64,000 bases of DNA from Bilabrum cf. latius. Its lineage: Eukaryota. The stretch lies in NCBI GenBank assembly GCA_965178125.1, contig OZ237745.1, forward strand, positions 1 through 64,000. Direction: 5' to 3'. The position numbers and the translations under genes were made by a program. Positions within the stretch are counted from its first letter, which is position 1, and each line of letters begins with the position of its first letter. Below the pieces are notes generated by a model. It worked only from the letters and a program-made list of their open reading frames with translations. It did no database searches and was not told the DNA's origin. Positions 1 through 64,000 of the stretch are shown here, one piece after another.

Positions 1-3000
1 CCACCCTTATGGTATCCGGCACTCCGCCCAGCGGGAGCGACCCTAGCCTGAACCGTCCGTCGTCATCCTAGCCGGTAAGACACAGCGCTAGCGGAAATGG
101 CACACCAGGGGTGTTCACCGGAATCGCCGTCCCATGCGGAAACTTCTCGTTCTTGCCTCCTCTCACCATGGCCGCAAATGCACCAATTGCCGCCAAGGGA
201 ACGTCCTCGTACGCCTTCTGGAGCGCGGAGACCATGTCCTCGAGCGTTACTCCCAGGTTTCTCATGGTCTCGTGCATCAGCGAGGCTGGAGCTCCCAGTA
301 AGGTGGCCGCTTTGGCCTGCTGCTCAATGCTCTGCGTCAGAGCCACGGTATTCTCGAGCTGCATGACCACCTCGGACGCAAGCCTCCCTGGGCTGATTCG
401 CACTACAGCAGTCAGTAGAGGGCCTGGTGCGTTGATCAGCACGGCAGACACCAAGGCCGGGTGCAGCATTCGACCAATGACCCGGCCGAGCTCCACGCAG
501 GGATCGTCACTGCCGCTCTGCAGGAACGACCTCAGATCCAGCAAGGCGCAGTCCTTGGGAGACTCAGTCCCAGCGGCGAATCCGACAACGTGGCGCCGGC
601 TGTCAGCCCGTGTTACCGCGAGTGGTCGCTACCCCGTGCAGGCAATGAGCGAGGCCGACTGCACACCCACCACGATGAGTGACGCTACGCCGTGCAGCAG
701 CTTCGGAAGCACCTCTGGAGAGCGGGCCTCCGGATCCGTGATCTCCCTCACCCCGCCCCTGGTCACAACCTGAAGCACCATAGCCAGAGTTGCCTGGGCT
801 ACGCGGCACTGGCCGTTCCAGTTGCGTGGATCCTTCTCCACCGTTCGCCGTCGGTCCGCAATGGTGCCATCCGCCACATGCCAGATGGCCTGCCGCAGTC
901 TGGCCTCGGGACGCGGAAGGACGGACTCCATGATGGACCGGGTCATGGCTTGCCCAGTCTGGGTGGGGGCCACCATCTGCGACACATCCAGCGCAAGCAT
1001 GCGCAGCTCCCCTGCGACTGCCTGCTGAACAGCTAAACCGTCCGACACCTGCTCAGCCGCCATAGCCTTTATCTCGATACTGGCCGCCGTAGCCATGGCC
1101 CCTCGGACCGCCTCCTCCAAGTCCCGCGTGACGGCATGCGCCACCTCCCGCTGCACCATGGCAGCAACTGTGTCAAAGAAGGGCGCTCGAACTGTCGACG
1201 TTCCTTCCGCCAGGGCATCCACGAGACTGGCGTGTCCGTCCTCAAGTCCCAGCGCCATTGCTAGTCCCATCAGAAGACCGGGCCCTGCCATGCTGAATTC
1301 GACGCGAAGCGATGCTCGAGCGTCACCTATAGCCTGCAACCTGCGACACGCGATCTCGGTGGCCTCGTCGTGCGCAACCCTTGCCATGGTGGCCGCAGCA
1401 GCCCGCCCCACCTTTGGAACCTGCTGCCTGCATCGCTCCAGCTCACCATACAGCCGAGACCCAAGCCGTTGGTGACTGTCGCCGCTGAGCCTCGTGGAGC
1501 GGAACGCCTGCTCGACGTACATCTGCACCCCGTGAGATACGCTCAGCATCGCGGGCAAGAGCTTACGAACAAACTCGTCGTCCCGCTCGCGGGTGGCCTG
1601 CGATACCAGCTCAGCCACGTGCTGAAAGTCATGCTTAGTCATGGCAGCTTGCGTATCGCCTCTGGCACGAGCCCTGAACTGCACACTGCCCAGAGATGGG
1701 CTCATGAGCAGGCAGTTCACGTTCTCTTCATCCACTTGCATTGGGAAGACGAACTAGCTCCCCACCTGTCCGAAGCCCGGTACGGAGGAGATGTCGGCCA
1801 CGGCATCACCCGCAAGTGCCATGGCATGACGCAGGCCCAGCACGCTCGGAAACGCAGCGTGCATGTCGCCGCCACCTGCCATGAAGCCCAGGTCCATGGA
1901 GAGCAACACGGGGTCCTGGCACTGGATCTCTGGTCGATGTTGCCCGAGCTCCGTCGCCATGCGGATGGCGTCCCTCCCGGCGGCAAGAGGGTCGACAAAC
2001 ACTACAGGGTGCCCGCCGTGGTCCGGAGGGTCCTCCTCAGGCTCACCAGCGGCCGGAGCCTGTCGCAGCATCAGGGATCGCATCACAGCAACCGCCGCCT
2101 GGTTCTGGCCCCCGACGACCAGGATTCGGTAGATCGAGCACGCCAGGACCCCTTGGATCTTCAGTCCGTCAGGATATCTCAGCCTGTGGGGCAGATGGCT
2201 GACCTGGGTGGGATGCAGGGCCGCGTCCTCGCTCAGAACCCGGAGCACTTCGCACAGGAAGTACCCGGGCCTGATGCGATGCCCGCCATCAGGCTCAGCA
2301 GTCCCACGCACGCCCATGTGACGGTCTCCAGGACTCAAAGTCTCGGTGTGGGTGCTTCCGCGAGAGACACCGACGGGCGAGTCGGTTGCTACAATCGCGT
2401 ACGATGCGGAGAGTCCCTGCGCCGTCGTGGCAGTCCTCGGGGTCGACTGCACCATGAACTCGGGCCCGCGGTACCCCTCCTTCTCTCTCACGTAGTTGAT
2501 GGCACCTGCGATGCCAATCAGGAGCGACTGCACGGCCTGGTCGAACGGCGTTCCAACGAGGCGCATTCCCTCCAGTCGCCGGATGTTCCAGCGCCTCGCG
2601 AGTGTGCGCAAGGAGGCCTGCTCTTCCTCAGACCCTGCGTGAGCAACGCCAAACACCCGAGCCACACCGCCCTCCGGTAGCACGACTCGCACCTCAGCCG
2701 CCCCCGCCAGGAGGACAGAGACCGAGACGTCGCCAGATCCGACCCCGCGCTGTTTGGGCATCATCGTGAGGTACTTGCGGAGCGTGGCACGTGCGGATTT
2801 CACGGCCCTGGCATTGCCTCGCACTGTGCCGGTGCTTCCCTCCAGGATCGCTTCAGCTTCCTCTAGCACCCCAACCTCCTCGCTGCTCTGGTGGAAGCGA
2901 CGAGCTGCACTTCGAACGTCCGATGTCAGGGATTGGACGGTCACGTGGTCCCCTGCTGGTGCAGGGAGAGCGTGATGGATGCGGTGCAGCCGCAGCGGCT

Positions 3001-20189: not shown

Positions 20190-20372
20190 GCTCGCTTGCT
20201 TTCCACCTTCTCCACGAAGATGGCAGGCCCACCGGCTTAAGTCTTCTGCTCAAGAGAAAAGCTCGCTGCCAGTGCAAAGGCAGTCTGGCGCGTGTTGTGG
20301 CATCCGGAATGACATTGCAAAATCGCAAGATCCGTAGATCCAGCCAAAAAGTATCTGAGATCCAACGCTACG

Positions 20373-24512: not shown

Positions 24513-25240
24513 TCACTCCTCCTTCAGGTACTGGCGGCTGCACTTACCGCAGTAGTAGCGGTCCCTGTGCTCGGCCATGAAAACGCCGACACCGCACATG
24601 GGGTGGGGGCACTCCTGGCGCACCTTCTCCACCTTGCCGTCCTCCTTCACGTTGTAGTACTTGAGGGTAGCCAGGGGGGTGTTCTTATACTTGGCCTTCA
24701 CCTTCTTGGGAGTGGTGTACGTCTTCTTCTTGCGCTTCTTGCCGCCGCCGAGCAGCCCCAGGAAGATACTGAGGGTGGCCTCCTCCTCCACCAGCTCAGA
24801 CACGCGGGCCTCGCCATCGAGGACCAGGCCGCCCATGGACAGGCGAGCCTCGGGCAGGCCCTCAGCCTCTGCCACGCGCATGGCCACATCCTTGACAGTG
24901 GTAGTCTCAGTCACATCGCACGCATGCGTGCTCACTCCCTGCTATTGGAAACATGACAGGAGCAAGTAGAAATTGTGATCGGCCAGCCGAAAAAGGCAAA
25001 CATGTGACACTAGCCGTACGCAGATCAAGGAAAATTCATTAGAATACAGCTAGAAAAAAGCTAGAGCGGCTGTAGGTGCCAATTCACACGGTGAAGTCAA
25101 CCAGAAAAATAGGACAGATGCAACTCGCACGATGCATGGAACCACAGCTTATCTTCGCCTGACCGGACTCGAGGTCAGATTCAAATGCATATTCAATACA
25201 AAGATAGATACAATGCTCTCACCTTCACGAAAATCTGCAT
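24513..25240 (-). CDS. RPS27A: 40S ribosomal protein eS31/S27a fused to a divergent ubiquitin-like domain; intron 24939-25222
   Basis: Exon 1 MQIFVK followed by GTGAG donor. Exon 2 contains ..[18 protein letters not shown] and the zinc finger [25 protein letters not shown]; ends TGA. Confidence 0.95.
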
Positions 25241-36382: not shown

Positions 36383-36484
36383 TGGTCACCTGCCATCTGC
36401 GTTGATGGTCACCTGCCATCTGCGTTGATGGTCACCTGCCATCTGCGTTGATGGTCACCTGCCATCTGCGTTGATGGTCACCTG
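36383..36484. repeat. 23-bp tandem repeat, ~4.4 copies, overlapping the sialidase stop codon
   Basis: TGGTCACCTGCCATCTGCGTTGA at 36383, 36406, 36429 and 36452, with a partial copy at 36475. Confidence 0.9.
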
Positions 36485-37639: not shown

Positions 37640-37757
37640 CTAAACACGCACACCGTCGATGCGCAGTTGCCGCAAAAGAGGCGCCGCGCAGTAATGCTGC
37701 GGAACCAGCAACGGCTAGACTAGTCCAAGTCCACGTGACGTCGTCTAATTAGTCCTG

Positions 37758-40411: not shown

Positions 40412-40788
40412 TTATATGCCCATAAAATTTCTTGTGAATGCGTGAACAGACAAGAAAAACGCCCACTTGCTCCGCAGTAGGCCTATCCAGCTATACTAGG
40501 GGGTCAATAATAAATGCGTTCGTGTCGTATCGTACAGATTCCAAGCTGTCTATCACAATTTCAGCAAACAGTGCATTGGCAAGCGCACTCGCATGTCTGT
40601 ACTTTTGTCGCGGCGACCATCTTCTTCACCGCAGCTGGGCTGTGGAGTGCAGGATGCGTTTTGGTGGTGAGCTCGTCGGCGCCGCGCACCATGTGACCCC
40701 GCAGGCAGCGGAACATCTTGCCGGCTGCCGGTGGATTGGAAACTTCGCATATTTACGGCTCGTGCATGACTGAGAGTAGCGATTTAGC

Positions 40789-43700: not shown

Positions 43701-46700
43701 GGTACGGCTCAGCCGCCAGCCTCAATGGGAACGTCGATTGACGGGACGCCTGCATGCCCGTATGTGTGCCAAGTAGGCCGTATCCGGTCCCGTGGCGCAT
43801 CTCGCTGCGGCCGGCGCAGACTCCGATTTTGGCGAAGGCTTCATCCGTGCGCGACTGGAGCCGCTCGGGGACGCCGTTTTTGCGACTGCCTCGGTGCACG
43901 AGCCAGCCAGCGAGCCGCAGTAGCATGACCAGACGCCAGACGGCGAGTCTGCCGAAGGGATAGGCAGTCGGCCGGGTAGGTCAAGAGTTGGTCTTCTGCA
44001 TGCGATTTGCCCTGGCATGCGCCCGTCATGTGCCCGTGTGCAGACGCGAGAGAACGTACAAGCAGTGCGGCTACTCGCTCAAGTAGGGGCAGAGGCAGCA
44101 GGAGGAACTGCCCGCGGCAATATGGCTCTGAACGCGTCATTCTGCGAGTCGCTTGGTGTGACCACGCCCCAGGTTGCTGAGCAGCTCTTTGGCCTGGCTC
44201 GGTCAACGGCCACTGAGGACGCAGAAGGGCAAGCATGGGATCGCATGCCTGCACCAGCTGAAGTTCTCGAGCACATGGCACAAGTCTGCGAGCAGGTGGG
44301 CGCGGCCGGCGTCGTGCGCATGGCGCTAGCTTCTCACATCCGCGTTGCACCTTCAAACGAGACTGTGGCGCTCCAAGACCAAGAGGTCCGCGATGCGGTG
44401 CAGCAGGTGCTGGCATCCTCAGCTGCTGGTCGAGTATTTGACAAGAAAGCTGAGGGTATCACTGGCAGCTGCCCACCGGTTGCAACGTCCAGTCAGGAGG
44501 AGTATGAAGACTTGTCCAGGCCGGAGCGCGTCTTGATCGATCGCCTCGACTACGACAATGCGTCCGACACTGCGGCCATTGGGAGCGGCATGTTTGTCGC
44601 AGATACAGTTGGCCAACGCGGCCTGGGCATGCACACATCCTAGCTGTGCCACCCGCTCGCTCGCCACCTGCAAGATCTCGCTGGCGGCGACCCCACATGT
44701 GGAGGCCTGCCTGCAGACATGGACGGGGAGGAGAGCCCAGAGCAGATGCTGGAGCGATCCAATCAGATATTGGGCACCACACACGAGCTCGTGTCAGCAT
44801 ACGCAGATATCGGAGCGGGCCCGGCCATGTTTGCGGAGAGTGTGGTCCCTGGGATGGAGGGCAGCCCAGCCGCCACCCGGCGAGTGAGAGCGGCGATGAT
44901 GCAGGTGGGCAACACGGCAGCCCTGCATTTGGGCTCTATGCAGAGGAATAGCGTGCTGCTGAACTCGTTCCAATCATCGTCCTCCCTCCTGAGCCAGCTC
45001 CTCGGATGTGACGCTGGAACTACCGTGCGAGAGCAGTTCATTCGTTCTGGCGGTCTTGCGATTCTGAGGGCCAGGATGCTGTCCACTGTGTGGGTGCACG
45101 CAGCCCCGCTTCGCTTCTCGCGCTTGCACGGAGGAGGATGCACCTGCACGCCGGGCTCCTCGAATCGAATCGGACTGCTACGGGTACTGCTGGCCGCCAT
45201 CGGTAGAGATGAGCCGCTCTCCGGGTGGATCGGCTGGCGGTGCAGGGCGGCGGGCTGCAGCAGGCTGGAGCTGGCTGGGATGGCCTGGATGGAGCGAAGG
45301 GCAGTTGAGAGCGGGCTGCAAGGTGAGCTGCAGGGCGCACGTGTCGAATCAGCTGGAGCCGCTACGAGTGGCACATCCGAGCAGGCGGACTTTGCATCGG
45401 AGCCTGACGACATCCTGTGGTCTGTCTAGTCACAGATGTCTCCACTGCCGCTGGCGTGCGGACCTGGGTCCAACTACCCGCCTTCGGTGCTACCCACTCG
45501 CATGGAGCTACACGCAGCACGATCAGCTATCGGCGAGGGGAGTGCCAGGCGGGCCCACGTGGTGTCGACACCGACCATCCTCGCAGCCGAGGCCACCCGT
45601 CAGGTCAAGCTGCATGGAGACAAGGGTCACGAGTCGGCGTCCGGTGGCAGTTCCTGGACACAAGCAGCCGAAACCGTGGAGTCCGCAGTCAGGAAGCTTG
45701 CCCCCGGAGCTCGCATGCTGCCCACAACGGCAGAGCTGAGCGGTGTAGTCCCCGTCCGAGAGCAGCCTGACCTGCCTGGACTCGCGCTCAAAGCGGTGCG
45801 AGCTGAAGGCGCCCGCTGGTGGGACGCCTAGAGCGACGAGACTTTTGCCGCCCCCGCAGAAGGCAACCTGCTCGACGCGGTCTCTCTGCGCAGGCCTTAG
45901 TAGGAGGGTGCTGGCGGCGAGGATGCGCGCCCCGCTTCTGGAGCCGTGCACCGTGACTACGCCACCGTGAATGCAGTGGCACTGTCAGAGCCTGTACTTC
46001 ATGAGCCCATGAGCGATTCCGTGGCTGCTTGTGTGGGTCTGCTACACGCTGCAGTACAGGACAGGAGCGCAGACAGCGCGGCGGCCTTGCTGGATTTACT
46101 GCAACCGTGGTCTGGGCCTGCAGTACGCACCGCAGACACCGCATCGTTTGCTGCCAAGTTCATTTCACACACAGCAGGAGTAGATGACAGCTCGCAAGGG
46201 GCCATAGGGAGCATCGCTGGATCAGTTGCCACTGCTGATACTCTTGATGACTCGGGCTCATTGAATGAAGCTATGGATGTCCTGTTGGCTGAGGCATGGC
46301 TTCCTGATGCTGCCTTTGTGCCCCGTCGCGTGAATGGCGTGATGGGCACCCCGTTGTTTGATCCCGCCCTTACGAAGCTTACTAAGCGGCACGGCAAATC
46401 ATATCCAAAGCCACTCGAGCAAAGCAGCCTGCGGGACTCGGCAGACTTTGCACGAGCTCGCAGGATGGGTCGACGGGCGCTGATGCACCTCGCAACGGCA
46501 GACAGGGTGCACCCGAGGACCGGTTCAGTGAGGACTGAGAGGGACTGGCTCGTGTCGCGGGTCGGTCTTGCGGAGATCGTCTCCGGTCCAATGCACACTG
46601 CAGGCGAGGATGACGCCCCTCGGGAATACGACGTGCGGCGGGACATAGTGCTTCGGATGGAGGGTGACGATCTCGGATGGGAAGAGCTGCGTGGGAGTGG

Positions 46701-48663
46701 AGACTTCTCGCTGTGTCGCGCTGTAGCAGCTGCTGCTAGGAAGCTTGGGCGCGAGTCTGAGGGTGGGGCGGCCACTGGATCGATCCCAACCCCAAGCACC
46801 GTGCAAGAGCTGCCACTTGAAGGCGAGGCGCACGTGCTGGCGGTAACGACAGGGCTGCCTGCTTGGGACGTGGCATCTCCGTGGATGCGTCCCCCCACGC
46901 CGTGCTTTGTGCATACCGCAAGCAAGCTCGCGAAATCAGCGAGTGCTGACAGCGCTGACTCGCTGGAAGCCAGGCTCCCGATATCGGCCTAGTGGTAGGA
47001 GGAGGCCGGGTATCTGCCTGCACATGCTGGCACAGGGCTGTGCCGAGCTGTGGTGGAGATGTATATGCATTGCAACCGTGGCAGCAGATACGGTTCGTGG
47101 GCCGCGAGCTCCCTCATGGCCACGGTGAGGGGGTCCCCATGGAGCTTCAGAGTCATGTGCATCCGGGCGGGGCTGGTCGGGCAGCTGGTGGGGGACATCC
47201 TCGAAATCGGCCTGTGGGATGCAGCTCACTCGTACCAGCTGCACAAGTACGAGGGCGGGGCTGCGGGTGGTACCTTGCCCGATGCGACTGCCAGGGCGGA
47301 CCCCGGGTCAAGCGAACAGGGCGGCTCTACTACGGAAGGGGAGGGGCTACGAGCAGCCGCCCCTGAGCCCAGCGTGCTCACGCCAGGACTGCCGCTGTAG
47401 ACATGGGGCATGGTCGTGCATCCCGCTGTCCTTGTGCCCCAGCCACCCCGCCTACCCCGCCGGTGCCGCCCTGTGATGCCTTTGCAGGTGACCATGGACT
47501 CTCTGGCAGCTCTGGTGGACTAGAACCCGCTAGGGCTCGCATGCCTGGGGCACCCCGCCTTCTTGCCCAGGCCCCGCCTCCGTGCCCTGCTGAGAATCGC
47601 GCTAGCCAAGCCAGTGGACTCGAACAAGGTCTTGCGAAACTTGTGGAAGTGCGCGTGGGACGCGCACTGCGATCAGGTGCAGCGGGGAAGTGCGCCGGGC
47701 GGTGAGCGGTGCATGGCTGTGTGGCGTTTGCCAGCCGTGCGGATGATGTCATCACGGTGGCTGGAGGTATTCGTGAGGCTGGTGTACTCCATCCCCGTGC
47801 CCCGCCAACTGGACACCTTCTCGGTGTCGTGCTTCAACTCTGCGCTCATGATGGCCGGCGCGGCTCTGCACGACCTGAGCGACGAGACTGCGGGCAGCAG
47901 GGAGGCGGGCTCGTGGGTGCGAGGAGAGGCTTGGAAGCACGGGAACGTGTCGATGGTCAGGCGGTTCGTCCGGTGTCTGGCGCAGTGGGATTTGCCTGCC
48001 GCGGAGAGGGTCTCGGTCGGGCAAGGGCAAGGGGAAGAGGGCGAGGACAAGCCCGTGGCAGATTGGATCAAGGAGACCCTGCGGACCGAGGACGTGGAGG
48101 CCAGGCGATAGAGGGGCAAGGACAGGCCACAGCAGGGAAGCAGCGGTCCCGCCCCCGCGCTAGACTCCCGCACCCCGGAGGACTGGGAGAGTCGCCAGGA
48201 GCACTGGAGCTTCTTCTCCATGTGTCCCAGCGGGGAGGAGGTAGACAGCAAGACCAGGTTCCCCTTCAAAGGACACGTCAACTGCATGTCGGTCCGCCCT
48301 ATCTCCGATACCGAGTGGCAAGAACATCCGGTCGGACCGCCTTGGAGGCACCTGCAGGAGCCCTCGCCCGAGAGTAGGTGGTCCGTGGGATGTGGCCGGC
48401 CTGTGCCCCTTGGAGCGCGGGCCTTGGCTCACCTGTGCCGGCTGTCGAACGCATGGCTCAAGTTCTATACCATGCGAGTGAGCATGCGGCAGGACATGGC
48501 CCAGTCGTGCGGGGTGGGTTTCGGCCACATGCGGTGCATCCTGGATGCCTTGCTGGCTCTGGGCAGGGAGTCGCTCGAGGACATGGGCCTGGGCGGCTGG
48601 ATGGACGCGAGGCACGGCGAGGAGGCGGGTCCTGCGAGTGCAGGCGCCGAGGCAGGAAAGTGA
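40789..48663 (+). CDS. Giant unrecognised protein of ~2,600 aa; possible upstream exon 40593-40666 with intron 40667-40787
   Basis: Twelve track ORFs share one frame. 16 TAGs, including TAG TAG at 45898-45903, and no TAA/TGA over ~7.9 kb; ends TGA 48661. Confidence 0.8.
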
Positions 48664-48837: not shown

Positions 48838-51800
48838 TCACGACCCGCCGCCCGACGCCGCCGCCTTCTTAGCAGCCGCAGCCCTCCGCTTGGCCTTGAT
48901 GTCGTCCAGCTTGCTGGGGTCTGCCAGCTCCCACATCTCAAGCATGACCTCCACCTTCTGCGCCGCAGTCTTGTAGATATGCTGGAAGGCCGGCTTGCTC
49001 AACGCGATGATAGCCATCCGGCTCATGGCCTCGATGAACGCGGGCTCAGGCAGCCGCCGCTTCTTATCGCCCTCGTCACCGCCAGAGGACCCCAGGTGCA
49101 AGTTGGCAGCCGCGTTGAATGCCACGCGCACCTCCCTGGACTTGGTGAAAGTGGGCACCACGTGGAAGTCCTTCATCATGCGGGCGAACTGCTGCAGGCT
49201 CACCCCGCCCTTGCCCGCCGAGTAGTACTCGAACAGCCCGTGCACTGCTTCTCCATGCTTCTCGAAGAGCGCCATCACCGCTGGGTCGAACACCCCCGTG
49301 GCCTGGCCCTCAGAGGCCTCCAGCGCCCTCTCCGCGTTCTCGCCCGCCTGTGCCGCGCTCCTGGCCTCGTTGTCCGTGTACACGCTCTTGGAGCCCTTGC
49401 CCCCGCCCGCGCCTGCGTGCGGCACCCCCACCACCGTGGCAGGCCGGCCCCCTTTGCTCGGCCCCGCCCCCGTGCGGTCGTGGTCCTTGAGCGCCTCCTG
49501 GCTCAGCCCCCCGCCCGCGGCCTGCTGCGCATCCGCCTGCAGGGAGGCGATGCGCCTGTGAGTATCATCCGGCAGCCCGGGCACGTGCGCGCCGGCCTCG
49601 GCGAGCGCCTTCCGCTGGGCATCCAGAGTCTTGGCCATCTGCGCGATGGTGGTGGACTCCTCCTCCAGGTGTCTCCCCAGCTGCCGCACCCGCTCAAACT
49701 GCTCCTGCAGCTCCTTGCGCTCACGGGCCAGCTCGGCGCGGTCCGCCTCAAGCTGCTCCCGCTCGGCGCTCAGCTGTTCCCTGTCCTCCTGCACCTTGGC
49801 CTGCAGCCGCATGGCCTCCTCACGCAGCGCAGACGCGTCGTCCCTGTCCTGCCGGGCAGCCTGGGCGTCTGCGCGCGCAGCCTCGGCCTCCGCCTCGGGC
49901 CCGGGTCCTGAGGGTGCAGTCCCCTCGCCCGCCCTGGGCGGGCCTTTGCCCATATCGGCGCCCCCACTGGACGGTGGGGCGGGCGGCGGCGGCGGGCGCT
50001 GCTTGGGCAGCCCCGGGGCGGCCGGCCCTGCCTGCACCTGCCTCTGCTACCTCGAGTACCCCGAGTCCTGGATGAACTTCTGCAGGGCCTCAGGGCCCCC
50101 AGTGCTCAGTGCCTGCGAGAGCTCCTGCAGCTGCCCGCAGGTGAGGCTGCTCCTGGACCAGACGGAGCCCCCCGGTCCTCCCTGGTCGAGCGTGATGATG
50201 GGCTCGAAGGGTGACCCCAACAGTGGGCGGCCGTAGGGGCGCTGCTCGTCGATCGAGATGTGCGCGTACCTCGGGTCGATGAGGTTCACGTGCAGCTCCA
50301 GCCGAGGGATGGTCTCTGCCTCGGCCCGGGAGAGTTCCTCATGCTGCAGGTCCACCTCGTACTTGACCTCGTAGGTCCCGTCCCCCAGGTCCACCACCGG
50401 GTAGGCCCTCCCAGGGCCGTGCACCTCCAGCTCCCAGCGGTCCCCCCCCGTGCCGTAGAGCTCGTCGAACTGATTGCGGGCCGTGATGCGGAAAGTGTTG
50501 ACCTTACCCACGCATGCCAGCCGCGTGCCCGCTCCCTCCACGAGGCAGTGCAGCGGGGCGGTGGGGGCGGGGTTCACCGTCACCAGGAAGGGGCTCCCCT
50601 GGATGTGTCGCTTGTAGGCCTTGATGTGCAGCTCGTACTCTCCCTCCCTAGACGGAGTGTACTGCCCCATGAAGGACCCGTTGCCCAGGTACTCCAGCGG
50701 CACCGGCAGCTGCAGCTCATCGCTGTCCAGGAAGGCCTCCATCACCTCGGGGTCGGCACTGCTCGGGTCGGGGATCCCGCGGTCGTCTCGCACCTCCACC
50801 GTGAACTCCGTCTCCACGCCCCGCTCCGCCTCCGAAATGCCCTGCCCGTAGGCCACGTGCTGCAGGGCCAGGGTGGTTGCAACCGCATCCATGTCCAGCT
50901 GGCCCCCGTCCTCGCCCTGCATCCCCTCACCGTGCTCCCCGCCCTCGCCCTCCCCTTCTATCGGCAGCTTGCCCCCGCTGTCGATGATGGCCTACTCCAC
51001 GCGGCGCCTCTCATCCTCCACCTGCCCCCACCTGCGATGCACGTCCTGCATGCGCTCCACCACCATGTTGATGGCCTACACCCACACGTCCGCGCCTGCA
51101 TCCGTGTCAGTCGCCAGCTGCACCTCGTCGTGGCCATTCTCGTCGATGACGGTGAAGATAGACTTGATGCGGGCGTCCGAGTGTCTCCCCAATTCCTCCA
51201 CGCGCGCGCTGTGGGCGTGCGTCAGATGGATCCGGAGCAGCTCCTAGCCCATGCGCTCCGCCGAAGGGACCAGCACGAGCTCGCACGCGCTCTCGGAAAA
51301 GGCGAGCGCGCGCTCCTCCCAACGGCGAAACGTCATGAAGCCGCCGCCAGAATTTTCTTTTCGAAGGACTGCTCCGATCTAAATAGGCAGCGTGTCCATG
51401 TCAATCTCCGGCTGCCTCGGGCCATCCTTGTCCCCGTACGGATTGGTCGGCAAGGCCTGCCCTGCACCGCCGCCCCCTGCCTGCTCGCCGAACGCACCAG
51501 CTCGCTATTCCAATTCTTCTTGTTGCTTGTCGAATCGATCCGCAGTGTCATGCACCGCAAAATTCATCTGGTCTAGCATATTGCGCAAGTGGCGGATGTT
51601 GTCGGCTTTCCGCATGTCCTTGATGGGGATGCCACGCTTATCGAGCACAGGCCGCCTACCACCAATCACCTGGCCATATCCAGATCCATCCATAGGCCCG
51701 CTTCCGTCCATGCCTCCGCCGTAGCCCTGTCCTGGGGCAGGAGATCCATCGTAGCCTGCCCCGTACTGGCCGCCACCGTACCCACCGCCCCTTGGCGGGG

Positions 51801-51873
51801 GACTTCCCATATCGGGATCTTGCCCAGGTGGTTGCACATCGCTATACCCAGACATATCGCTCTAGTAGGCCAT
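48838..51873 (-). CDS. PH + two filamin/Ig-like repeats + coiled-coil + degenerate EF-hand-like protein, ~1,010 aa
   Basis: PH-like VLRKE..RRWEER..DVWV*AINMV; filamin-like YLGNGSF..YTP..GEY..IQGSPFLVTV and DLGDGTYEVKY; C-terminal SLQQFARMMKDF..FIEAMSRMA. 7 TAGs; TGA. Confidence 0.8.
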
Positions 51874-52171
51874 TGTTGTATCTATGCTGAAGCCAAATAC
51901 CTGCACAGCAAGTTAGCTCTTGTCGGCAAGCGTGTGTGCTTGGCTATCAGTTTTCTGTCCCTATTCCTTCCTAAACGAGAGCAGAGAACTATCGTTGAAT
52001 TAACCCCGTAGTTGACAGGGATGTCGATGTCGATGGCTAGGTTGGATGCTGCTGTTTTGCGCAACACTCTGAGAGTCGCGCCAGAATTTCCGTTCAGATT
52101 AAATCAGCACCTTACAAAATATGGCCGTGAAAGCGTTCAAATTGGGCTGCGTAGCATCATTGAGCCAAAAA

Positions 52172-53193: not shown

Positions 53194-55681
53194 TCACGCC
53201 TGCACGTCCATCGTCCCCTTGATTCGGATGTCACCCGAGGATGCTCCCACGAGCACCCCGAACGAGCCCCCGATGAGCTTCCACTGGCCCGCACCAGTGT
53301 CCCAGATGCTGCAGTCGCGGGCCGCGATGCTCACGGTCACCGTGGTGGACTCGCCCGCTCCCAGGTACACCTTGTCGAATCCACGCATGACCTTGGGCGG
53401 CTCGCCAGCAGACGAGGGGAAGGCCAGGTACACCTGGGGGGCGTCCCCCCCTGCACGCGACCCCGTGTTGGAGACATCGAAGCTGATCTGCGCCGTGCCG
53501 CTGGCCGACACCTGCCCCTTCACCTCGAGCTTCGAGTAGGAGAAGGTCGTGTAGGACAGGCCGTGTCCGAACGGGAACAGGGGCTTGATGTTCTTCGCAT
53601 CGAACCAGCGGTACCCCATCTCCAGCTCCTCGGTGTACACCTGCTGGATGGCCTGGTTCCCTGGGTACTGCGCAGTAGACTGGATCCACGTGTCCGTCTC
53701 CTTGACCGGAAAGGACAGCGGCAGGCGAGCCCCTCCGTTCACGTCCCCGAACAGCACGTCGGCCAGTGCGTTGCCCGCCTCCTGCCCGGGCATGAAGCTG
53801 GCGATGATGTTCTTGGCATCGTCGGCCCAGGGCATGAGCACCGCCCCCGGGGACCGCACCACCACCACGGTCTTGGCGGCGGCCGACTGCAGCACCATCT
53901 GCACCAGGGCGTCCTGTCCACCGGGCAGGGAGAGGTTCGGCCTGTCTGAACCCTCCGAGGACGTCACTGCCACCACCACCACGGCCACGTCAGCGGCTGC
54001 TGCGGCTGCAGCTGCGGCTGACGGGTCCTTCCCGTCGTAGTAGGTCACGTTCACTGCCTCGTCGTAGGGTGCGCACGTGCCGCTGGTGAGGCCCTGGTGG
54101 GCCTGCCTGCCGCTGTTGTCGGGCTTGATCCAGCACGTGGAGGGCGGCTGGAAGGTGAAGGCGTTGCAGTCCGGGCGGGCCGTGCACTGGGCGCAGCAGT
54201 CCGCGGGCCCCGTCGACTGCACGGAGGGATTGCCCGGCTGGAAGAAGTCCGTGTTGTTCACAAAGGTGCAGTTCAGAGGGCGGGGGCCGTTGGCGCGCGC
54301 CGCAATTCCGTCCGCTGGTGTGACGATGTAAGGTGTGCGCACCCCCCCGGACCCCCCGCCGTGCACAGAGTTCTGGTCCCCGATGACGGCGATGGACTTG
54401 ATGCCCTGGGCCTTGACGTCCAGCGGCAACAGGGAGGAATCCACCTTGAGAAGCACGTGCGAGTTGGCGCTGAGGTTCCTGGCGAGCTGGCTGTGCTCCT
54501 TTGACATCACGTTGGAGCTCAGGTTGCCGGTGGGCACGTCCGTGAACAGGTTGTACACGAGCATGGGGGTCAGGATCCGCTCGATCATGTCGTCCAAGCG
54601 GCTCTCGGGCACCTGCCCAGACTGCACCGCGCTCTTCAGCTTGTCTCCGAAGAAAGAATCGTCAGGCATCTGCTGGTCGAGGCCGTTGATCGCGGCCTGC
54701 ACCGTGCTGTGCGTGGCGCCCCAGTCGCTCTGCACATAGCCCTCGAAGCCGAGGCCACCGCTCGACTCGGGCGTCTTGAGGTGGGGCAGGGTGATGTTGT
54801 TCTCGCACGCGTACTCGCCCGTGACCATCTAGAAGGGCTGCTCTTTCTGCACGGACACGCGGTTGTACGAGCACATCACCACGCCGGACCCGGCGTCTAT
54901 GCCGCCGCGGAAAGCCCAGTAGTACAGCTCGTGCATGGCGCGCTCAGAGACGATCTCGGTGACCTGGTGCCGCTGGAACTCCCCGTTATTCGCCACCCAG
55001 TGCTTGGTGCACGCGAGGATGTTGTTGCTCTGGATGCCCTCCACTTCGGCGTACATCATGCCGTAGCAAAGCACGGGGTCCTCGCCGCAGCTCTCGAAGG
55101 ACCTGCCGTCCTGTGGGACCCGGGCCATGTTCACCATGGGACCCAGCCTGCGCAAAGCACGGATACAGACAAACAAAGAAACAATGCAAATTTCAAATTA
55201 CTTTCGTATACAAATAACTTGAAGCACACCATGACACCACTTGCGTTTTAGACATCACTGACGCAACGGACCTAACTTACATCACATTCGTGCCTTTCCC
55301 ACGCTGCTCCTTGCCCATGGCCTGGCCGTAGGTTTTCATCATTTCAGGATCAAACGTGGACACCACCGTCATGGCGCTCGGCCAGGCCGTGACATCAGAA
55401 ACGCCGTCCGCGACGCCTTGTGGCCCGTCCTCATAGCTCAGTCGGGGGATATTTAGGCGAGAAATGGGCGGAACACCACCGACATAGCCATCATAGCCCT
55501 TCAGCGCATCTGATTCTTCGTCCTATTGCTATGGCCAGCCGTGAACAAGCTGGATTTTCTCGTCGACAGTCATCTCGGCAAGTAGATCTTTCGCTTTTTG
55601 CTTCGCACTAGCGGGCCATGACGATCCAGCGAAAGCAGAAGCAGCAAGAATAGCAGGGATGATAGCAAGGATGGATTTCAT
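53194..55681 (-). CDS. Secreted GH3 beta-glucosidase with an inserted PAN/Apple-like module and C-terminal Fn3-like domain; intron 55148-55280
   Basis: Signal peptide, MTVDEKI, DGPQGV, GRSFESCGEDP, KHW, MCSYNRV, VQSDWGATHST, PGQEAGNALADVLFG and PLFPFGHGLSYTTF. TAG at 55529, 55523 and 54829; TGA. Confidence 0.95.
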
Positions 55682-55923
55682 CTCGAGCAATGTCTGTGTG
55701 TGTCGTACAAGCAAAGGAGTACTTCCCAGCTGCGCGTCATCACGGTCGAACTCCGGTTGGCGTGGTTCGTACTGCAACTGCACCGGAGCTCTGTGGCTTC
55801 AGGATACTTCGATTTAATCAGGCCGATGAATGATTGAGCTTATAGTAAAGTCTTTACACTGGCGTAAGCAAACGCATGGGTCGGTGCAATTCACCCACCC
55901 CATTCCATCCCTGTGCCGCGGAA

Positions 55924-57279: not shown

Positions 57280-58052
57280 AGTAAATTGGGAGTCAAACTC
57301 ATCAAGGCTCTCGGCCGAGGCTGTTGCGTAGACATTATGGCAACTTGAAGGTCCGTCCGTACCTTTCTCTGCAGAGCCGAGAGCCTGTTGTGTGTGGGGT
57401 GAGGTGTGGGGGGGGCGGAGTGGTGAGAGCGCCGCGAGGTCGTTCAGGTGCACCACTCTAGGTTCATCGTGATGGAAATCTGATGCTCAATGTTGTATCA
57501 CATGCGCACTTGTACGCAAAGGATACAAAGGGAATTCCCTGTAACGTGCGGTTCAAGCTGTGCTAGGGCTACCGCCGGCGAGGTGTGATGCACTACAAAC
57601 AGGGGAAGCTCTGGGAATGTGCGTCGGTGCGATGCAGTTGCCGGGCTTCATTTTGCGACGTGGGGGGGGGCATTCAGCTAGATATGTATACTAGTAGACA
57701 CTGGGTACGGGATTGGTGGGTAATCTGCGAAGTCTGCCTCAGGTCTGCAAGTCATGCACTACACCGTATGCAAGGGCCTTTATAGGATCCGAAACATAGC
57801 ATGGACGTGAGAGGATGCAAGCTGCAGGTAATTTTCGCTCACTTGCTGGCCAGCACTCGTCCAGTCACCCACCAGCAGCGCGGCGGTGCTGGAGCAAACG
57901 GAAAGATGAAGATCAATCTAGGCGGTAGAATCGCCCAAAACGGAAGGTGTGTTTGTATCGAACGATTCACCGGGTGGCTTTCTAAATAAAATCATATTAT
58001 TGCGACTGAATCAACCAGCCGTACACACGAATCACAGTCATTTCGGCATCTA

Positions 58053-60764
58053 ATGTCCGAATACCCAGGTGATGCTGACGCTTGGGGCGAAGACACAGAG
58101 CAACCGAGCAGTACAGCAGGAGTTGGTATCGCGGGTGCTTCTCTAGGACGCGTTTCTCTTCAGCTTGGAGCACCAACCAGGTTGGGTGCGCGTGGGCAGC
58201 TTGGTATGGGAGACCGGCCTCCAAGGTCTGGCCCGCCGCCGGACGATTTTTCTGCGCCGCCGCCGCAGGTAGACAGCAGTCGCTACGGTTCACGATCAAG
58301 CGAATAGTTGCTGTCTTAGAGGGCTGCGCGGCCGCTGTACGGCTCGGCTCCCCCAGTGGATGCGGCGGCGCAATACTCGAGTGTCGGGCGAGACGTTGCT
58401 GCAAGCGGAGCCGGGGCTGGCATTCCAGCAGCTCCTCCCCAGGCTCCTGAAGTGAGCTTAAGTTAGACAGGATCGTTCATGGTGGGCGGCTTGCGAATTC
58501 CTCGAACTGGTATGGTGAACGAGAAGAAGCGCGCCCAGGTCGGCACAGCAACTGCCACTCGATCCGCTGGCCTGGCAGCCATGGCGCGACAGGCAGCGGC
58601 ATCTAGCGCAGCTAGCAAAGGACCAAGGAGTGTTGGTATTGACCCAGCCGACACGAGCGCCGCAGCAGCAGCTGCAGCCGCAGCCGACCCCGGGGTGGTG
58701 CTCGAGGACGAGGAGGACGACGGAGCCATGGCCCGCACGCAGCTCCCCTTCGCGGCGGTGGCGCAGGCCGCCGAGGGGGCGAGGGAACAAAAGCGATTCG
58801 ACTTCAGGAGAGAGGCGGTGCGCATCGACCTGCTGGGCCAGGGGGCGAGCGCCACCGTGTTCCGCATGGTGCACGTGCCCTCGCTCACCGTGGTGGCCGC
58901 CAAGATGGTGCCCGTCTTTAACGCCGAGAAGAGGCACGCGCTGGCCGAGGAACTCAAGGCGCTGTATGCAAATGCGACGCCCTTCGAGCGATCGGCCAGC
59001 ACGCGGGTGCAGCGGGCCGCCCTCCGCGAGATGGCAGCCCAGGCCCAGGCCCAGTTGGCAGGGGCTGGTGCAGGCAGCTCTGCCGGCTCGTTGCCTCCCT
59101 CGCCTGCACACGGGGACAGGGACCAGGAAGCAGCCGAGGCGGCAGAAGCGGCACTGTCGGCCTCCATCGCAGCGACTGAGGCGGCCTCTCGCTCCCTCTC
59201 CACGCAGCAGCTCAAGGACCACGCGAGGAGGGCGGCGGGGAGGGGGTGCGCGGGGGCTGCGGGGGAGGCGGGGGTCGCTGCTTCTTCCTCCGCTACCACT
59301 GGGTCTGTCTCTCCCTCGCTGTCGCTAACTGCCTCCATGGCAACGCAGGCGGCCGCGGGGTCTCCGTGCCCGTACGTGGTCTCCTTCTTCGATGCATTCG
59401 CGGATAGCGAGAGCGGGACTGTGACCATGGTGCTGGAGTACATGAACGCTGGCTCGCTCGAGGAGCTGTGCGTCCCCGGGGCTTGTCCTGGAGACGCAGT
59501 GCTGCAGTCGGTGACGTGGCAGGCGCTCATGGGCCTGGCCTGGCTGCACGGAAACAGGCGGGTGCACCGAGACATCAAGCCGTCGAACATTCTGCTGAAC
59601 CAGGACGGCGACGTGAAGATCGCTGACTTCGGCGTGGCCAAGGAGTTCGAGGAGGTGGCGGGGAGGAGGAAACAGGAGGCGGGCGAAGCGAAGGGGAAGG
59701 GGGCCGCGGGGACTGGCTTGGACTCGGAGGGCATGCGAATGGGGGAAGGGGGGGAAGGCGAAGATGAAGAGTACGGCATGGGCAGCGGGGGTGCGTCAGA
59801 TCCCATGTCGCAGACCTGGGTGGGCACGATGAACTTCATGTCCCCGGAGCGGGCAGTGGGGAAGCCCTACTCGTACAACACGGACATCTGGTCCCTGGGC
59901 CTCAGCGTGCTCGCTTTCGCGCAGGGCAAGCTGCCTTACTCGGATGTCCGGGGGTACTTCGATCTGCTAGAGGCACACGCCGAGAGGCCGCCCCCGGCAT
60001 TGGACGCGTCCGACTCCAGGTTTGGCCCGGATGCCCGTGACTTCATCGCGCAGTGCCTCAAAAAGGACCCCGAGGAGAGGCCCTCGGCGGCCGCCTTGCT
60101 GCAGCACCCGTTCCTGCAGGGGGCTGGCGAGCGGGTGCTGGCCCTCAAAGCAGCCAGGGCACAGGCAATCGTGGATGGCACCCTGCCGCCGCCACCCGCC
60201 AGCGAGTCGGCCCGCTCGCAGGTGAACGAGGTGGTGGACAAGGTACAGAGGTACAGATACAAGGCTGCCTACTAGGCCAAAGTGCCCGGGGGGGTGAAGC
60301 AGTACCGCGGCTCGCGCATCCGGTGGCTCGCCAGGCAGCTGAACGTGTCGGAGGGGCTGGTGCAGCGCAGGCTGGAGCGCACGCTCAAGAAGCTCAACGC
60401 TCAGCTGGAGGCCAAGTTCGGAGGACGGGGCGCCTCTTTGGGTGCAGGGGCAGGGGGGAGTGTGCGAGGTCTAGCAGCGGGGAATTTCCCGATGCCGTCT
60501 GGCGCAGGAAGCGGGGCAGCAGCACGGGCTGGAACTGATGCAGGGGCGGCAGGGGGTCTGCGCGCCGGGGCTGGCATGCAGCGCCCGCAGGTCCACACAG
60601 AGATGACGCACACATGCGAGTCCACGCGGGAGGCGAGCGGTCCCATTGGTCGACCAGGGCGAGGGCCTCCACCCGGTGGTCTGCAGGGCGGGCTAAGTCT
60701 GGATGTGGCGGGGCTGGGCGCGCCTGGCATGTATGGTGGGGGGTCTGAGGGCAGCGTGTTTTGA
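58053..60764 (+). CDS. MAP kinase kinase (STE7 family), ~900 aa, with large insertions
   Basis: SLS*TGSFMVGGLRI, LGQGAS..V..AAK, VVSFFDAF, LEYMNAGSL, HRDIKPSN, KIADFGV, TWVGTMNFMSPER and DIWSLG. TAG at 58305, 58317, 58464 and 60273; TGA. Confidence 0.9.
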
Positions 60765-62019: not shown

Positions 62020-64000
62020 TCAGCTGCTCGGCGCACAGAGGGCACGCTCGTTTCCAATGGGCCACAAGAAGCTCTCCAGACTGGCGGCCGGGCCCAGCCC
62101 GTCTAGCACAGCAGCGAGCACGTGCTGCTCCTGCACTGCTCCCCCACTCGCAGCTGCAGCCGCCCGTGCCCCTGCAGCGGCGGCCCGCAGCACCCGCCGA
62201 GCCATCGAATCGCTCCTGGCCCGCAGCTCTAGCAGCCACTCCTCTGCCGGTGCACCACCATGCGATGCACCGCACCGCAGCAGCCACTCCCCCACGGGCC
62301 CCCGCCGGTACCCATCGGAGCGGGCCCATGCCACCAACTGGGCCCTGCGGCCAAGGCCAGCGACCGACGTGGCTGCGTGCCAAGTCTGTCCCGGGTGCAC
62401 TGCAATGCCGTGCTTCGGCAGCACGATGCACTGGTCTACTCCGTCACCAATCGAAGGACCCCCTGCCGCACCTTCGCCTTGACCAAACTATGTGTATCCC
62501 GCGGGGTCGGCCTGCGCAACATCTTGGAGGGGTCGAGAGGACGCGTGTTCCCTGGTTCCGGAGAACACCAGAGTACCCGGAGGCGGGCCCACGCCTCTGG
62601 CAGACCTCCAGCCCTCGACCTCCCTCTCCTCTCCTTGGCTTTGGCCTTCCCCTGGCCCGCCCTGCCTCTCGAGACATGCGTTCAAAGTGATCTCGCTCTC
62701 GTCCATGTGTCGGGAGAGAGAAGAGACGCCGTCCGGCTCGGGCCCGTCCCACAGCCTGGGACTGAGCATGGGTCCGGGGGAGCGGACCCCACCGTCGGAC
62801 AATATGTCCGTTGAGTTACCGTCCTCCCAGGCGCGCCGCTGCTTACGGTAGGCCACGGTGAACACATGCCAGTCGTCCACCGCACCGCCATCCCACTCGG
62901 GCAACGAAAGCCCGAAGGACAGCCTCCAGCGGCCTCTGACCATAGCTTGCGCCCACTGCCGCAGCCCGATCTCTGCGAGCACGACGCCCTGGCGATTCAT
63001 CGAGTTCGGCCGCGTGAGATTGAGCCCCACTGAAGCGACGTCCAGCTCCGTCTCCTCAGGCGACCCATGTACGTCTGTCTGCAGCAATGCACCCCGGACC
63101 GCTGGTCCGACTGCGCGGAGCGCGAGGCAGACCCCCCGCATGGTTCCGCTCTTTGGCGCCGCGCACTCGTCACGCAGGATGCCATTAAGGTCCCTGGCTG
63201 CCTACGCAGCACCATGCAGTGCATCCAGCTCGAGCGGGTCCAGCAGCTGCGATGCAGGCAGGACAGGTGCCCTCATTCCACTCCCCGGCCGCGAGCTGTC
63301 CGTGGTACCTTCGCCGGCAGGTACTGCATCGCTCGCTTGGATGGATAGTGTTGGTTTGCACGGGACCTGCACTGGACGGCGCGCACTGTCGCGCTCGTGC
63401 TCACCCTGCTGCAGGTGCTCAATGGCGCCGGCTCTGCTCCGTCTCCAGTCGTCGGGACTCATCGCACTGCCAGGGAGGACTGCCTCTGCCTCTTCCGGAA
63501 GAATTGGGGGGAGATCACTGAACTCACTGCTGCTTTTGTGCCGCTCTGAGTTTCTTTCTGATCGTTCTCCTTGTTCGGCTGCTTGCAGCATGGCGAGGGT
63601 CTGCAGTCCCGTTGCAAGCGAGCACGCTGCCGCTCTCGCTGGTGATCGGTTCTAGTCTCTGCAACCGGGGCTCTCTGCCAATCGATGAGGTACACCACTT
63701 GTGTTGGCAGTGGTGCCTGCGGTGGTGCTGCACCCGCACTCCTCGGACAGCTGAAGGCCCACGGCAGAGCGGACTGCAATGGGGAGCTAGCGCGATAACA
63801 AACCAAAGCGCCACTCAAGCTCTCGCTCTGCGATGCTTCTAGCTTGTGCTATTGATGAGTGCGTGCTCTCAACTGATCTAATGCTTGCAAGCGATTGCAC
63901 TTCATCAGCAAGCGTTGCTGTTGACTGCAGTCCTGCAGTTGCATGAGGCTGTTCGCAGGATTGAACTACCTGCAAATGCGCCTCAACCTAGTCTTCACAT
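62020..64000 (-). CDS. Hypothetical protein, 3' part only; the start lies beyond the window
   Basis: Four track ORFs in one frame, with 5 TAGs (63988, 63787, 63652, 63202, 62488); open to the window edge; ends TGA 62020. Confidence 0.65.

What the first reader, a model, noticed from the sequence alone, without database searches (positions are those of the whole stretch)
1..64000. Non-standard nuclear genetic code: TAG read as a sense codon, most likely Gln
Seen: about 19 genes are split only by in-frame TAG (roughly 90 by hand count). Some fall inside catalytic domains (DSP 39629, sialidase 37109, GH3 54829), and one 7.9-kb frame has 16 TAGs with no TAA/TGA. Identity comes from recalled family motifs: SASA HQVV*AG (20484) aligns to the conserved MVLQR; MAP2K SLS*TGSF (58464) to the LTQSGTF motif of plant MKK1/2; LZTFL1 VT*TKQF (26202) to FQQTAAY; PH helix WV*AI (51076) fits WxQAI. 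Known: UAG-only reassignment is very rare in nuclear genomes (reported for Iotanema, a rhizarian and some phyllopharyngean ciliates). Inference: in a GC-rich, apparently non-ciliate flagellate this may be an independent origin. I cannot tell whether this organism's code is already published.
Basis: partly seen in the sequence, partly recalled or inferred. Interest (0 to 1): 0.95.

Follow-up and report, generated by a model that had tools for sequence, protein, structure and literature searches.

The report
TAG read as glutamine codon
This GC-rich protist genome reads the stop codon TAG as an amino acid, most likely glutamine, and still ends its genes with TAA and TGA, which is a rare kind of genetic-code change.

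Summary
In 20 coding frames of about 18 genes I count 96 in-frame TAG codons. No TAA or TGA interrupts any Pfam- or homologue-supported region. TAGs lie inside the aligned sialidase, dual-specificity phosphatase, GH3 and SASA esterase domains.

The TAGs are not introns or edited sites. Contigs from three public runs splice out three GT..AG introns yet match the DNA exactly across TAG sites.

A related organism, a 4.5-kb metagenome contig with the same five genes in the same order, also has in-frame TAGs. Two sit at the same LZTFL1 codons.

Glutamine is the best-supported meaning:
- The SASA TAG (20484) sits where 113 of 116 aligned homologues have Q, including a 94%-identical relative.
- Both TAGs in the relative's HSBP1 align with Q of human HSBP1.
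- Among 14 window-versus-relative pairs the partner is Q 5 times and S 4 times. Likelihood favours Q over S by 5-7 natural-log units.

Frames end at TGA (17) or TAA (6). No tRNA or eRF1 gene lies in the window, so the mechanism is inferred.

The nearest named homologue is from Cafeteria, a bicosoecid stramenopile. Seven searches of the held library found no report of such a code in that group. The code type is known (NCBI table 15). This looks like a new, probably independent, instance.

The parts
20313..22064 (+). SASA-type sialate O-acetylesterase gene, ends at TGA. TAGs at 20418 (signal-peptide region) and 20484. The second is the most informative site for the meaning of TAG.
   Evidence: Pfam SASA. 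PDB esterases have Q at the site in 3 of 3 that cover it. Q in 113 of 116 aligned homologues, including the 94%-identical P0152.
36455..37651 (-). Sialidase (BNR_2) gene: exon 36455-37453, intron 37454-37549, upstream exon from 37550. TAGs at 37109 and 36620 lie inside the domain. Ends at TGA.
   Evidence: Pfam BNR_2 residues 48-306. PDB Sialidase-1 alignment runs through both TAGs. Spliced contigs of X5 and X7 cover both TAGs with 0 differences.
38669..40411 (-). Dual-specificity phosphatase gene with 6 in-frame TAGs (40157, 40073, 40034, 39629, 38975, 38747). 39629 lies inside the DSPc domain. Ends at TAA.
   Evidence: Pfam DSPc 7.7e-34, residues 247-373. DUSP4/DUSP10 alignments run through the TAG.
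40774..48663 (+). 2629-codon frame with 17 TAGs and no TAA/TGA, ending at TGA. No Pfam family and no homologue of similar length found.
   Evidence: An X5 contig covers 44195-48660 with 0 differences.
48838..51912 (-). Filamin-repeat protein gene with 7 TAGs (51862, 51505, 51379, 51244, 51076, 50992, 50047). Ends at TGA. High depth in the RNA-type runs.
   Evidence: Pfam Filamin. Depth about 100 in X5 against about 12 in flanking genes, and all 7 TAGs lie in contigs with 0 differences.
53194..55798 (-). GH3 glycosidase gene with a PAN domain: exon 53194-55146, intron 55147-55279, exon 55280 onwards. TAGs at 54829, 55523 and 55529. Ends at TGA.
   Evidence: Pfam Glyco_hydro_3, _3_C, Fn3-like and PAN. 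The spliced contig of X7 (53102-55146 + 55280-55686) covers all 3 TAGs. The spliced piece listed for X5 (53075-55146) covers 54829 only.
26052..27093 (-). LZTFL1 (Pfam Leu_zip) gene in two exons, with a predicted intron at about 26428-26524. It has 8 TAGs (27037, 26917, 26701, 26635, 26385, 26340, 26319, 26202). 27037 and 26202 are TAG in the relative L001 as well.
   Evidence: The intron is predicted from GT..AG and the frame change; it was not covered by the read laying.
27764..30304 (-). SWIRM-domain protein gene with 5 TAGs, ending at TAA. Its C-terminal part is conserved in L001, which has 4 TAGs of its own there.
30456..32204 (+). WD40 protein gene with 4 TAGs in the N-terminal part, ending at TGA.
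32237..34879 (-). 880-codon coiled-coil frame with 9 TAGs, ending at TGA. No Pfam family.
57990..60764 (+). Protein kinase gene with 4 TAGs, all outside the kinase domain. Ends at TGA.
24516..25148 (-). Ubiquitin-like/ribosomal S27a fusion gene with no TAG in the coding part, ending at TGA. Together with FKBP 56785-57276, HSBP1 27349-27672 and SPC25 52378-53019, it is one of the short, conserved genes whose coding parts hold no TAG.

Best explanation
The window is nuclear DNA of a GC-rich, intron-poor eukaryote in which UAG is an ordinary, fairly rare sense codon. Its most likely meaning is glutamine, and it makes up about 11% of presumed Gln codons. UAA and UGA terminate translation, which is the pattern of NCBI table 15.

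Shown here: reading frames and protein homology continue through TAG. TAG is kept unspliced and unedited in transcript-derived contigs. The trait is shared with related organisms. At the only TAG site in a near-invariant column, that column is Q.

Inferred from established knowledge, not shown: a tRNA-Gln with anticodon CUA, one base away from the standard CUG, reads UAG but not UAA. The release factor eRF1 has lost efficient recognition of UAG while keeping UAA and UGA.
For: 1) Frames: 96 in-frame TAGs in 20 frames. Pfam and PDB alignments are continuous across the TAGs in sialidase, DSPc, GH3 and SASA.

2) Transcripts: runs X5, X6 and X7 carry three GT..AG splice joints (37453/37550, 52300/52447, 55146/55280). 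These are absent from the DNA run X1. 31 of 38 in-frame TAGs in 36001-56000 lie in their listed contig pieces with 0 differing letters, and 5 of those lie in contigs that are themselves spliced.

3) Relatives: metagenome contig L001 (GC 52%) holds the same five genes in the same order. It has 10 in-frame TAGs, 2 of them at the same LZTFL1 codons, and its frames end at TAA or TGA. Fragments P0002 (97% identical) and P0001 begin or end where the window or L001 has TAG.

4) Amino acid:
- At the SASA TAG (20484), Q occurs in 113 of 116 aligned homologues and S in 0. The 94%-identical P0152 has Q there.
- Q occurs in 3 of 3 PDB esterases covering the site.
- Both HSBP1 TAGs of L001 align to Q of human HSBP1 3ci9.
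- The 14 TAG-versus-sense pairs between window and L001 give Q 5, S 4, and P, E, R, A, K 1 each. Log-likelihood is best for Q, ahead of S by 7.3 natural-log units with the empirical table and 5.4 with BLOSUM62.

5) Terminators of 23 frames: TGA 17, TAA 6.
Against: - No tRNA gene lies in the window or in L001. There is no eRF1 gene and no genome is held, so the mechanism is untested.
- Ser is the partner at 4 of 14 pairs, against about 1.3 expected under Q from the empirical table. At the second HSBP1 site the window itself has Ser.
- Most TAGs sit in variable columns. The ten LZTFL1 family columns give Q a log-odds near 0, with E or R scoring higher. Sialidase and DSP sites align to V/H and A/R. 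At 26701 two relatives have Ala.
- The RNA nature of X5-X7 is the tool's guess, and X5 is flagged 'probably DNA'. I infer RNA from the splice joints and the uneven depth.
- Contigs drop rare variants, so partial editing cannot be excluded.
Confidence: 0.85

Rival explanations
1. UAG is a sense codon but stands for serine, as reported for the green alga Scotinosphaera, or for another residue such as Glu, Lys, Leu or Tyr.
For: Ser is the second most frequent partner of TAG between window and L001 (4 of 14). Three of those sites have highly conserved flanks, and the Ser codons are AGT, TCC, TCT and TCG. At one HSBP1 site the window has Ser where L001 has TAG. A UAG-to-Ser nuclear code exists in print (PMC8271138, passages read).
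Against: - At the near-invariant SASA column, S occurs in 0 of 116 homologues and Q in 113. The closest relative has Q.
- Likelihood on the 14 pairs favours Q over S by 5.4-7.3 natural-log units, and over R, E and K by more.
- Leu never pairs with a coding TAG.
- The organism groups with a stramenopile in the LZTFL1 tree. No homologue there is known to be from a green alga, and all but one are unnamed.
Confidence: 0.07
2. UAG has two meanings: sense inside genes and stop at some gene ends. This would be context-dependent, as in Condylostoma or Blastocrithidia for other codons.
For: My frames were extended through every TAG by construction, so a terminal TAG would be missed. The methyltransferase (19239-20249) and DSP frames have TAGs in unconserved C-terminal tails, 17-40 codons before the assumed stop.
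Against: In the genes where homology reaches close to the end, the first stop after the homologous part is TGA or TAA and never TAG. These are S27a, FKBP, LZTFL1, GH3, sialidase, HSBP1 and SPC25. The same holds in L001. With so few genes this is weak: about a 1 in 6 chance under ordinary TAG use.
Confidence: 0.1
3. The TAGs are not translated. They would lie in introns, be edited to CAG in the mRNA, mark pseudogenes, or be assembly errors.
For: The genome does have short GT..AG introns. One TAG does lie in the predicted LZTFL1 intron.
Against: - Transcript-type contigs that remove the true introns keep the TAGs letter for letter, and no joint skips a TAG.
- Only 1 differing letter was reported in 20 kb across 4 runs, and it is not at an in-frame TAG (40323).
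- Homology is continuous across TAGs, and flanks are conserved in a relative at 65% identity.
- Up to 17 TAGs occur in a single expressed frame.
- Independent DNA assemblies (X1 and L001) show the same pattern.
Confidence: 0.02

Closest known systems
UAG-only reassignment to glutamine (NCBI table 15 pattern): Iotanema spirale (Fornicata), Protocruzia tuzeti, some phyllopharyngean ciliates
   Same: UAG is sense and best fits Gln. UAA and UGA are kept as terminators. Reassigned codons sit mostly at variable positions. A tRNA-Gln(CUA) is the predicted decoder. (PMC5304391 and PMC11687900, passages read.)
   Different: The host lineage differs: the nearest named homologue is from Cafeteria, a stramenopile. 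The genome is about 60% GC and intron-poor. At least two further related lineages share the trait. Neither tRNA nor eRF1 could be examined here.
Scotinosphaera (Ulvophyceae): UAG to Ser, UAA and UGA as stops
   Same: Only UAG is reassigned, and TAA and TGA terminate. (PMC8271138, passages read.)
   Different: The amino acid differs. The invariant-column test gives Q 113 and S 0 of 116. Nothing points to a green alga.
Rhizarian exLh: UAG to Leu
   Same: Only UAG is reassigned, and UAA and UGA are stops (PMC5304391).
   Different: Leu is never the partner of a coding TAG here (0 of 14).
UAR to Gln codes (table 6) of many ciliates, ulvophytes, hexamitid diplomonads, Streblomastix and Amoeboaphelidium
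   Same: A stop codon is read as Gln, presumably by mutated tRNA-Gln.
   Different: Here TAA ends 6 of 23 frames in the window and 3 of 5 gene ends in L001. It never interrupts a supported frame.

Membership tests
UAG-to-Gln nuclear code (table 15 pattern) | In-frame UAG inside conserved protein-coding genes, retained in mRNA | tested here: met
   (homology across TAG). (TAG kept in spliced transcript-type contigs).
UAG-to-Gln nuclear code (table 15 pattern) | UAG positions correspond to Gln in homologues | tested here: met
   SASA site: Q 113 of 116. HSBP1 of L001: 2 of 2 sites align to Q of 3ci9. Pairwise partners: Q 5 of 14, best likelihood. Most other sites fall in variable columns and are uninformative.
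UAG-to-Gln nuclear code (table 15 pattern) | UAA and UGA still terminate and are absent from inside genes | tested here: met
   Frames end at TGA (17) or TAA (6). No TAA or TGA lies inside any Pfam- or PDB-aligned stretch.
UAG-to-Gln nuclear code (table 15 pattern) | UAG no longer used as a terminator | tested here: inconclusive
   0 of 7 genes with homology up to the C-terminus end at TAG. That is too few to exclude dual use.
UAG-to-Gln nuclear code (table 15 pattern) | tRNA-Gln with anticodon CUA | not testable with these tools
   0 tRNA genes in the window and in L001. No genome is held.
UAG-to-Gln nuclear code (table 15 pattern) | eRF1 with altered stop-codon recognition | not testable with these tools
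   No eRF1 gene lies in the window.
UAG-to-Ser code (Scotinosphaera type) | UAG at positions where homologues have conserved Ser | tested here: not met
   S occurs in 0 of 116 homologues at the one invariant column. S is 4 of 14 in the pairwise comparison but has a lower likelihood than Q.
Ambiguous all-stop codes (Condylostoma, Blastocrithidia type) | UAA and/or UGA also in frame inside genes | tested here: not met
   None lies inside supported coding stretches.

The most novel reading that the evidence does not exclude
This would be the first stop-codon reassignment found in a stramenopile nuclear genome. It would be an independent origin of UAG-to-Gln, with UAA and UGA kept as stops, in a bicosoecid-related clade of GC-rich heterotrophic flagellates. 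The clade holds at least three lineages: the window, a 94-97% identical relative, and a relative about 65% identical that is known only from a metagenome. That would make a small natural clade, with public DNA and RNA data, in which to date the change and to find how eRF1 tells UAG from UAA.
Probability: 0.45. Interest if true: 0.85.

Novelty: new member of a known kind. Interest (0 to 1): 0.8.

Why it matters
UAA and UAG almost always change meaning together. Only a handful of nuclear lineages have separated them. The ones named in PMC11687900 are a rhizarian, Iotanema, Scotinosphaera, Protocruzia and some phyllopharyngean ciliates.

A further independent case would add a data point on how eRF1 can lose UAG while keeping UAA. 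This one is outside the ciliates, in a GC-rich compact genome, and has relatives at several distances that share the trait.

There is also a practical consequence. Standard-code annotation of this genome and its relatives breaks genes at every TAG. The database fragments P0001, P0002 and P0152 show this, so the gene catalogues for this clade are fragmented.

Tried and rejected
- ORF length as evidence was rejected. Reading through TGA gives even more long ORFs in this GC-rich DNA.
- A family-wide column analysis of LZTFL1 (99 full-length homologues, 10 TAG columns) was uninformative.
- Neighbour-residue context of the 96 TAG sites does not discriminate. The top scorers were R, M and T with small margins.
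- The search for full-length homologues of the 2629-aa protein found none of 1445-4601 aa. Shorter or fused forms were not searched.
- The first LZTFL1 word search gave only 1 hit.
- Rfam found 0 families in the window.
- tRNA scans found 0 genes in the window and in L001.
- No RNA holder is listed on record for the runs. RNA status was inferred from the splice joints.
- Looking up names for 20 homologues gave names for only two taxa: Cafeteria for LZTFL1 and Ploeotia for SASA.
- Seven literature searches found no report of a nuclear UAG reassignment in stramenopiles or bicosoecids in the held library. Subscription journals and supplements were not visible.
Full report
WHAT THE WINDOW IS. The window is 64 kb of about 60% GC DNA. 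It holds densely packed eukaryotic genes on both strands, few short introns, and a block of non-coding tandem repeats at 7.7-18.7 kb. No whole genome is held for it. It has no tRNA gene and no Rfam family.

Pfam identifies the following:
- a methyltransferase;
- a SASA esterase;
- a SWIRM protein;
- a WD40 protein;
- a BNR_2 sialidase;
- a DSPc phosphatase;
- a filamin-repeat protein;
- a GH3 glycosidase with a PAN domain;
- a protein kinase;
- LZTFL1 (Leu_zip);
- HSBP1;
- QCR9;
- a ubiquitin-like/S27a fusion;
- SPC25;
- an FKBP.

OBSERVATION. Seventeen long frames (13,761 codons) hold 86 in-frame TAG. With the LZTFL1 exons and GH3 exon 1 the count is 96 TAG in 20 frames. Because I defined the frames as free of TAA and TGA, their absence is by construction. 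ORF length is no argument either, since reading through TGA gives even more long ORFs in this GC-rich DNA.

What counts is that homology runs across TAG:
- BNR_2 spans residues 48-306 over the TAGs at 37109 and 36620.
- DSPc spans 247-373 over 39629.
- Glyco_hydro_3 spans 18-210 over 54829.
- Alignments to solved structures pass through these codons without a break.

The 7.9-kb frame has 17 TAGs, 16 of them after the first Met. No TAA or TGA interrupts any supported stretch.

NOT INTRONS, EDITING OR PSEUDOGENES. I laid the contigs of four public runs on 36001-56000. Run X1 behaves as DNA, with one contig covering 36455-56000 and no joints at the three intron sites named below.

Runs X5, X6 and X7 carry three joints with canonical intron ends:
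- 37453/37550 (96 nt, minus strand; in X5 and X7);
- 52300/52447 (146 nt, plus strand; in all three runs);
- 55146/55280 (133 nt, minus strand; in all three runs).

Their depth also varies by gene, from about 6 to 160. I therefore treat them as transcript-derived. The tool only guesses 'RNA?' and flags X5 as probably DNA.

Of 38 in-frame TAGs in this stretch, 31 lie inside the listed contig pieces with zero differing letters. The other 7 are simply not in the rows shown. Five of the 31 lie in contigs that are themselves spliced: sialidase 2 and GH3 3. Only one differing letter was reported in the 20 kb (40323), and it is not at an in-frame TAG. Contigs can hide rare variants, so partial editing is not excluded.

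RELATIVES SHARE THE TRAIT. A word search with LZTFL1 found one fragment, P0001 (68% identity). A metagenome scan with that alignment found contig L001 (4475 bp, GC 52%).

L001 holds the C-terminus of the SWIRM protein, HSBP1, LZTFL1, QCR9 and the Ub-like/S27a gene. Their order and relative orientation match window 24.5-28.6 kb. Identity is 41-84% per protein.

L001 has 10 in-frame TAGs of its own. Two are at exactly the window's LZTFL1 codons 27037 and 26202, within conserved flanks. Its genes end at TAA or TGA.

P0002 (97% identical to the window, 91 aa) starts just after the window's TAG at 26917 and ends just before the one at 26635. P0001 starts after a TAG of L001. Both patterns are what a standard-code gene caller would produce. 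The reassignment therefore predates the split of these lineages.

WHICH AMINO ACID. Most TAGs lie in variable columns:
- Sialidase sites align to V or H, and the DSP site to A or R.
- Ten LZTFL1 columns over 99 homologues give Q a log-odds near zero.
- Residue context around the 96 sites is uninformative.

Three lines of evidence are informative.

(a) The SASA TAG at 20484 lies in the N-terminal motif that reads MVLQ in most homologues. Of 120 homologues, 116 align over the site. Of those, 113 have Q, 2 have R (a one-column slip in the alignment) and 1 has M. None has S. The 94%-identical relative P0152 has Q exactly there. Three of three bacterial esterase structures covering the site have Q.

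(b) Both TAGs in the HSBP1 of L001 lie inside the Pfam domain and align with Q of human HSBP1, 3ci9. I recall, but did not test, that these two Q are conserved in plants and animals. At the first site the window has Q. At the second it has S.

(c) At the 14 aligned positions where one of window and L001 has TAG and the other a sense codon, the partners are Q 5 (CAG 3, CAA 2), S 4, and P, E, R, A, K once each. I built a substitution table from the 829 other aligned pairs of the same genes. With it, Q has the best log-likelihood (-33.2) and S is second (-40.6). With BLOSUM62 the values are -32.1 and -37.5.

The excess of Ser is real: 4 observed against about 1.3 expected under Q. It is the main evidence against Q. 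It matters because a UAG-to-Ser nuclear code is in print for Scotinosphaera (PMC8271138). Taken together with (a), I put Gln at about 0.88 and Ser at about 0.07. Leu, the meaning in the rhizarian code, never appears as a partner.

TERMINATORS. Of 23 frames, 17 end at TGA and 6 at TAA. In seven genes homology reaches near the C-terminus: S27a, FKBP, LZTFL1, GH3, sialidase, HSBP1 and SPC25. In all seven the first stop after the homologous part is TGA or TAA. Seven genes are too few to exclude UAG still acting as a stop in some contexts.

TAG would make up about 11% of Gln codons: 86 TAG against 525 CAG and 151 CAA. It is absent from the coding parts of the short conserved genes S27a, FKBP, HSBP1 and SPC25.

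WHO IT IS. Of 150 LZTFL1 homologues from the representative library, the best full-length one is P0003 (47% identity, E 6e-33; the next is 9e-22). It is a Cafeteria protein by its NCBI and UniRef names. In a quick maximum-likelihood tree of 54 rows, window plus L001 are sister to it with SH-aLRT 98. The other neighbours are unnamed.

Cafeteria's LZTFL1 is uninterrupted. This is one short gene, so I give a bicosoecid-related stramenopile about 0.65. The best named eukaryotic SASA homologue is from the euglenid Ploeotia at 35% identity, and the rest are mostly bacterial. That says more about the history of that gene than about the organism.

LITERATURE. The discussion of PMC11687900 (passages read) lists the nuclear cases where UAG and UAA differ:
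- a rhizarian (Leu);
- Iotanema (Gln);
- Scotinosphaera (Ser);
- an oligohymenophorean ciliate (UAA Lys, UAG Glu);
- Protocruzia and phyllopharyngeans (Gln, Leu).

Seven full-text searches gave no report for stramenopiles or bicosoecids. The library lacks most subscription journals, and supplements were closed, so prior publication cannot be ruled out.

MECHANISM (INFERRED). As argued in PMC5304391 (passages read), reading UAG while ignoring UAA requires the anticodon CUA. This is one mutation from tRNA-Gln(CUG). It must be accepted by glutaminyl-tRNA synthetase, and eRF1 must have weakened recognition of the third-position G. None of these components lies in the window.

With up to 17 UAG in one expressed frame, leaky readthrough without a dedicated tRNA cannot account for the data.

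VERDICT. The finding is real. The code type is known, but the lineage appears new.

Noticed in passing
window 18056-18447: An interstitial telomere-like array, (ACCCTA)65, which is TTAGGG on the other strand. It is followed by a 55-bp tandem repeat (18452-18737) and preceded by subtelomere-like tandem repeats. It could mark an old chromosome-end fusion or an assembly join.
   Followed up: partly
window 7750-11700: About 4 kb of a degenerate 21-bp minisatellite (about 184 copies, strong C over G skew). It creates long spurious ORFs on both strands and many non-coding TAGs.
   Followed up: partly
window 12317-17995: Nested tandem repeats with periods 167, 155 and 410 bp, each 93-99% identical between copies. 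The block 12.3-14 kb is repeated at 15.7-18 kb.
   Followed up: no
window 24516-25148 (minus) and L001 3806-4267: The ribosomal S27a gene is fused to a strongly diverged ubiquitin-like domain (Pfam ubiquitin only 20 bits, below the cut-off). The domain is conserved between window and relative (84% identity overall). In most eukaryotes, as far as I recall, this ubiquitin is nearly invariant.
   Followed up: no
window 20313-22064, 36455-37651, 53194-55798: A sialate O-acetylesterase, a sialidase and a GH3/PAN glycosidase lie within 35 kb. The esterase's homologues are mostly bacterial, and the best named eukaryotic one is a euglenid at 35% identity. This hints at acquired glycan-degrading genes.
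   Followed up: partly
window 26701 (LZTFL1): Here the window has TAG, while both the 97%-identical fragment P0002 and L001 (GCG) have Ala. The neighbouring Leu/Ile also differs. This is a two-base codon change in a very close relative, unexplained by a simple CAG-to-TAG step.
   Followed up: partly
P0152 against window 20475-20490: The 94%-identical SASA fragment starts only two codons before the Q that matches the window's TAG. This suggests the relative has a stop-like codon (perhaps its own TAG) at or near the adjacent window Gln codon. No DNA was available to check.
   Followed up: no
window 40774-48663 and 2-5374 (minus): Two very large frames (2629 and at least 1791 codons) have no Pfam family. 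For the first, no homologue of similar length was found in 5.8 billion proteins.
   Followed up: partly
window 55927-56613 (minus): A 229-codon frame without TAG that I took for a cytochrome-b5-domain ciliary protein from memory. Pfam gave no hit, so the name is unconfirmed.
   Followed up: partly
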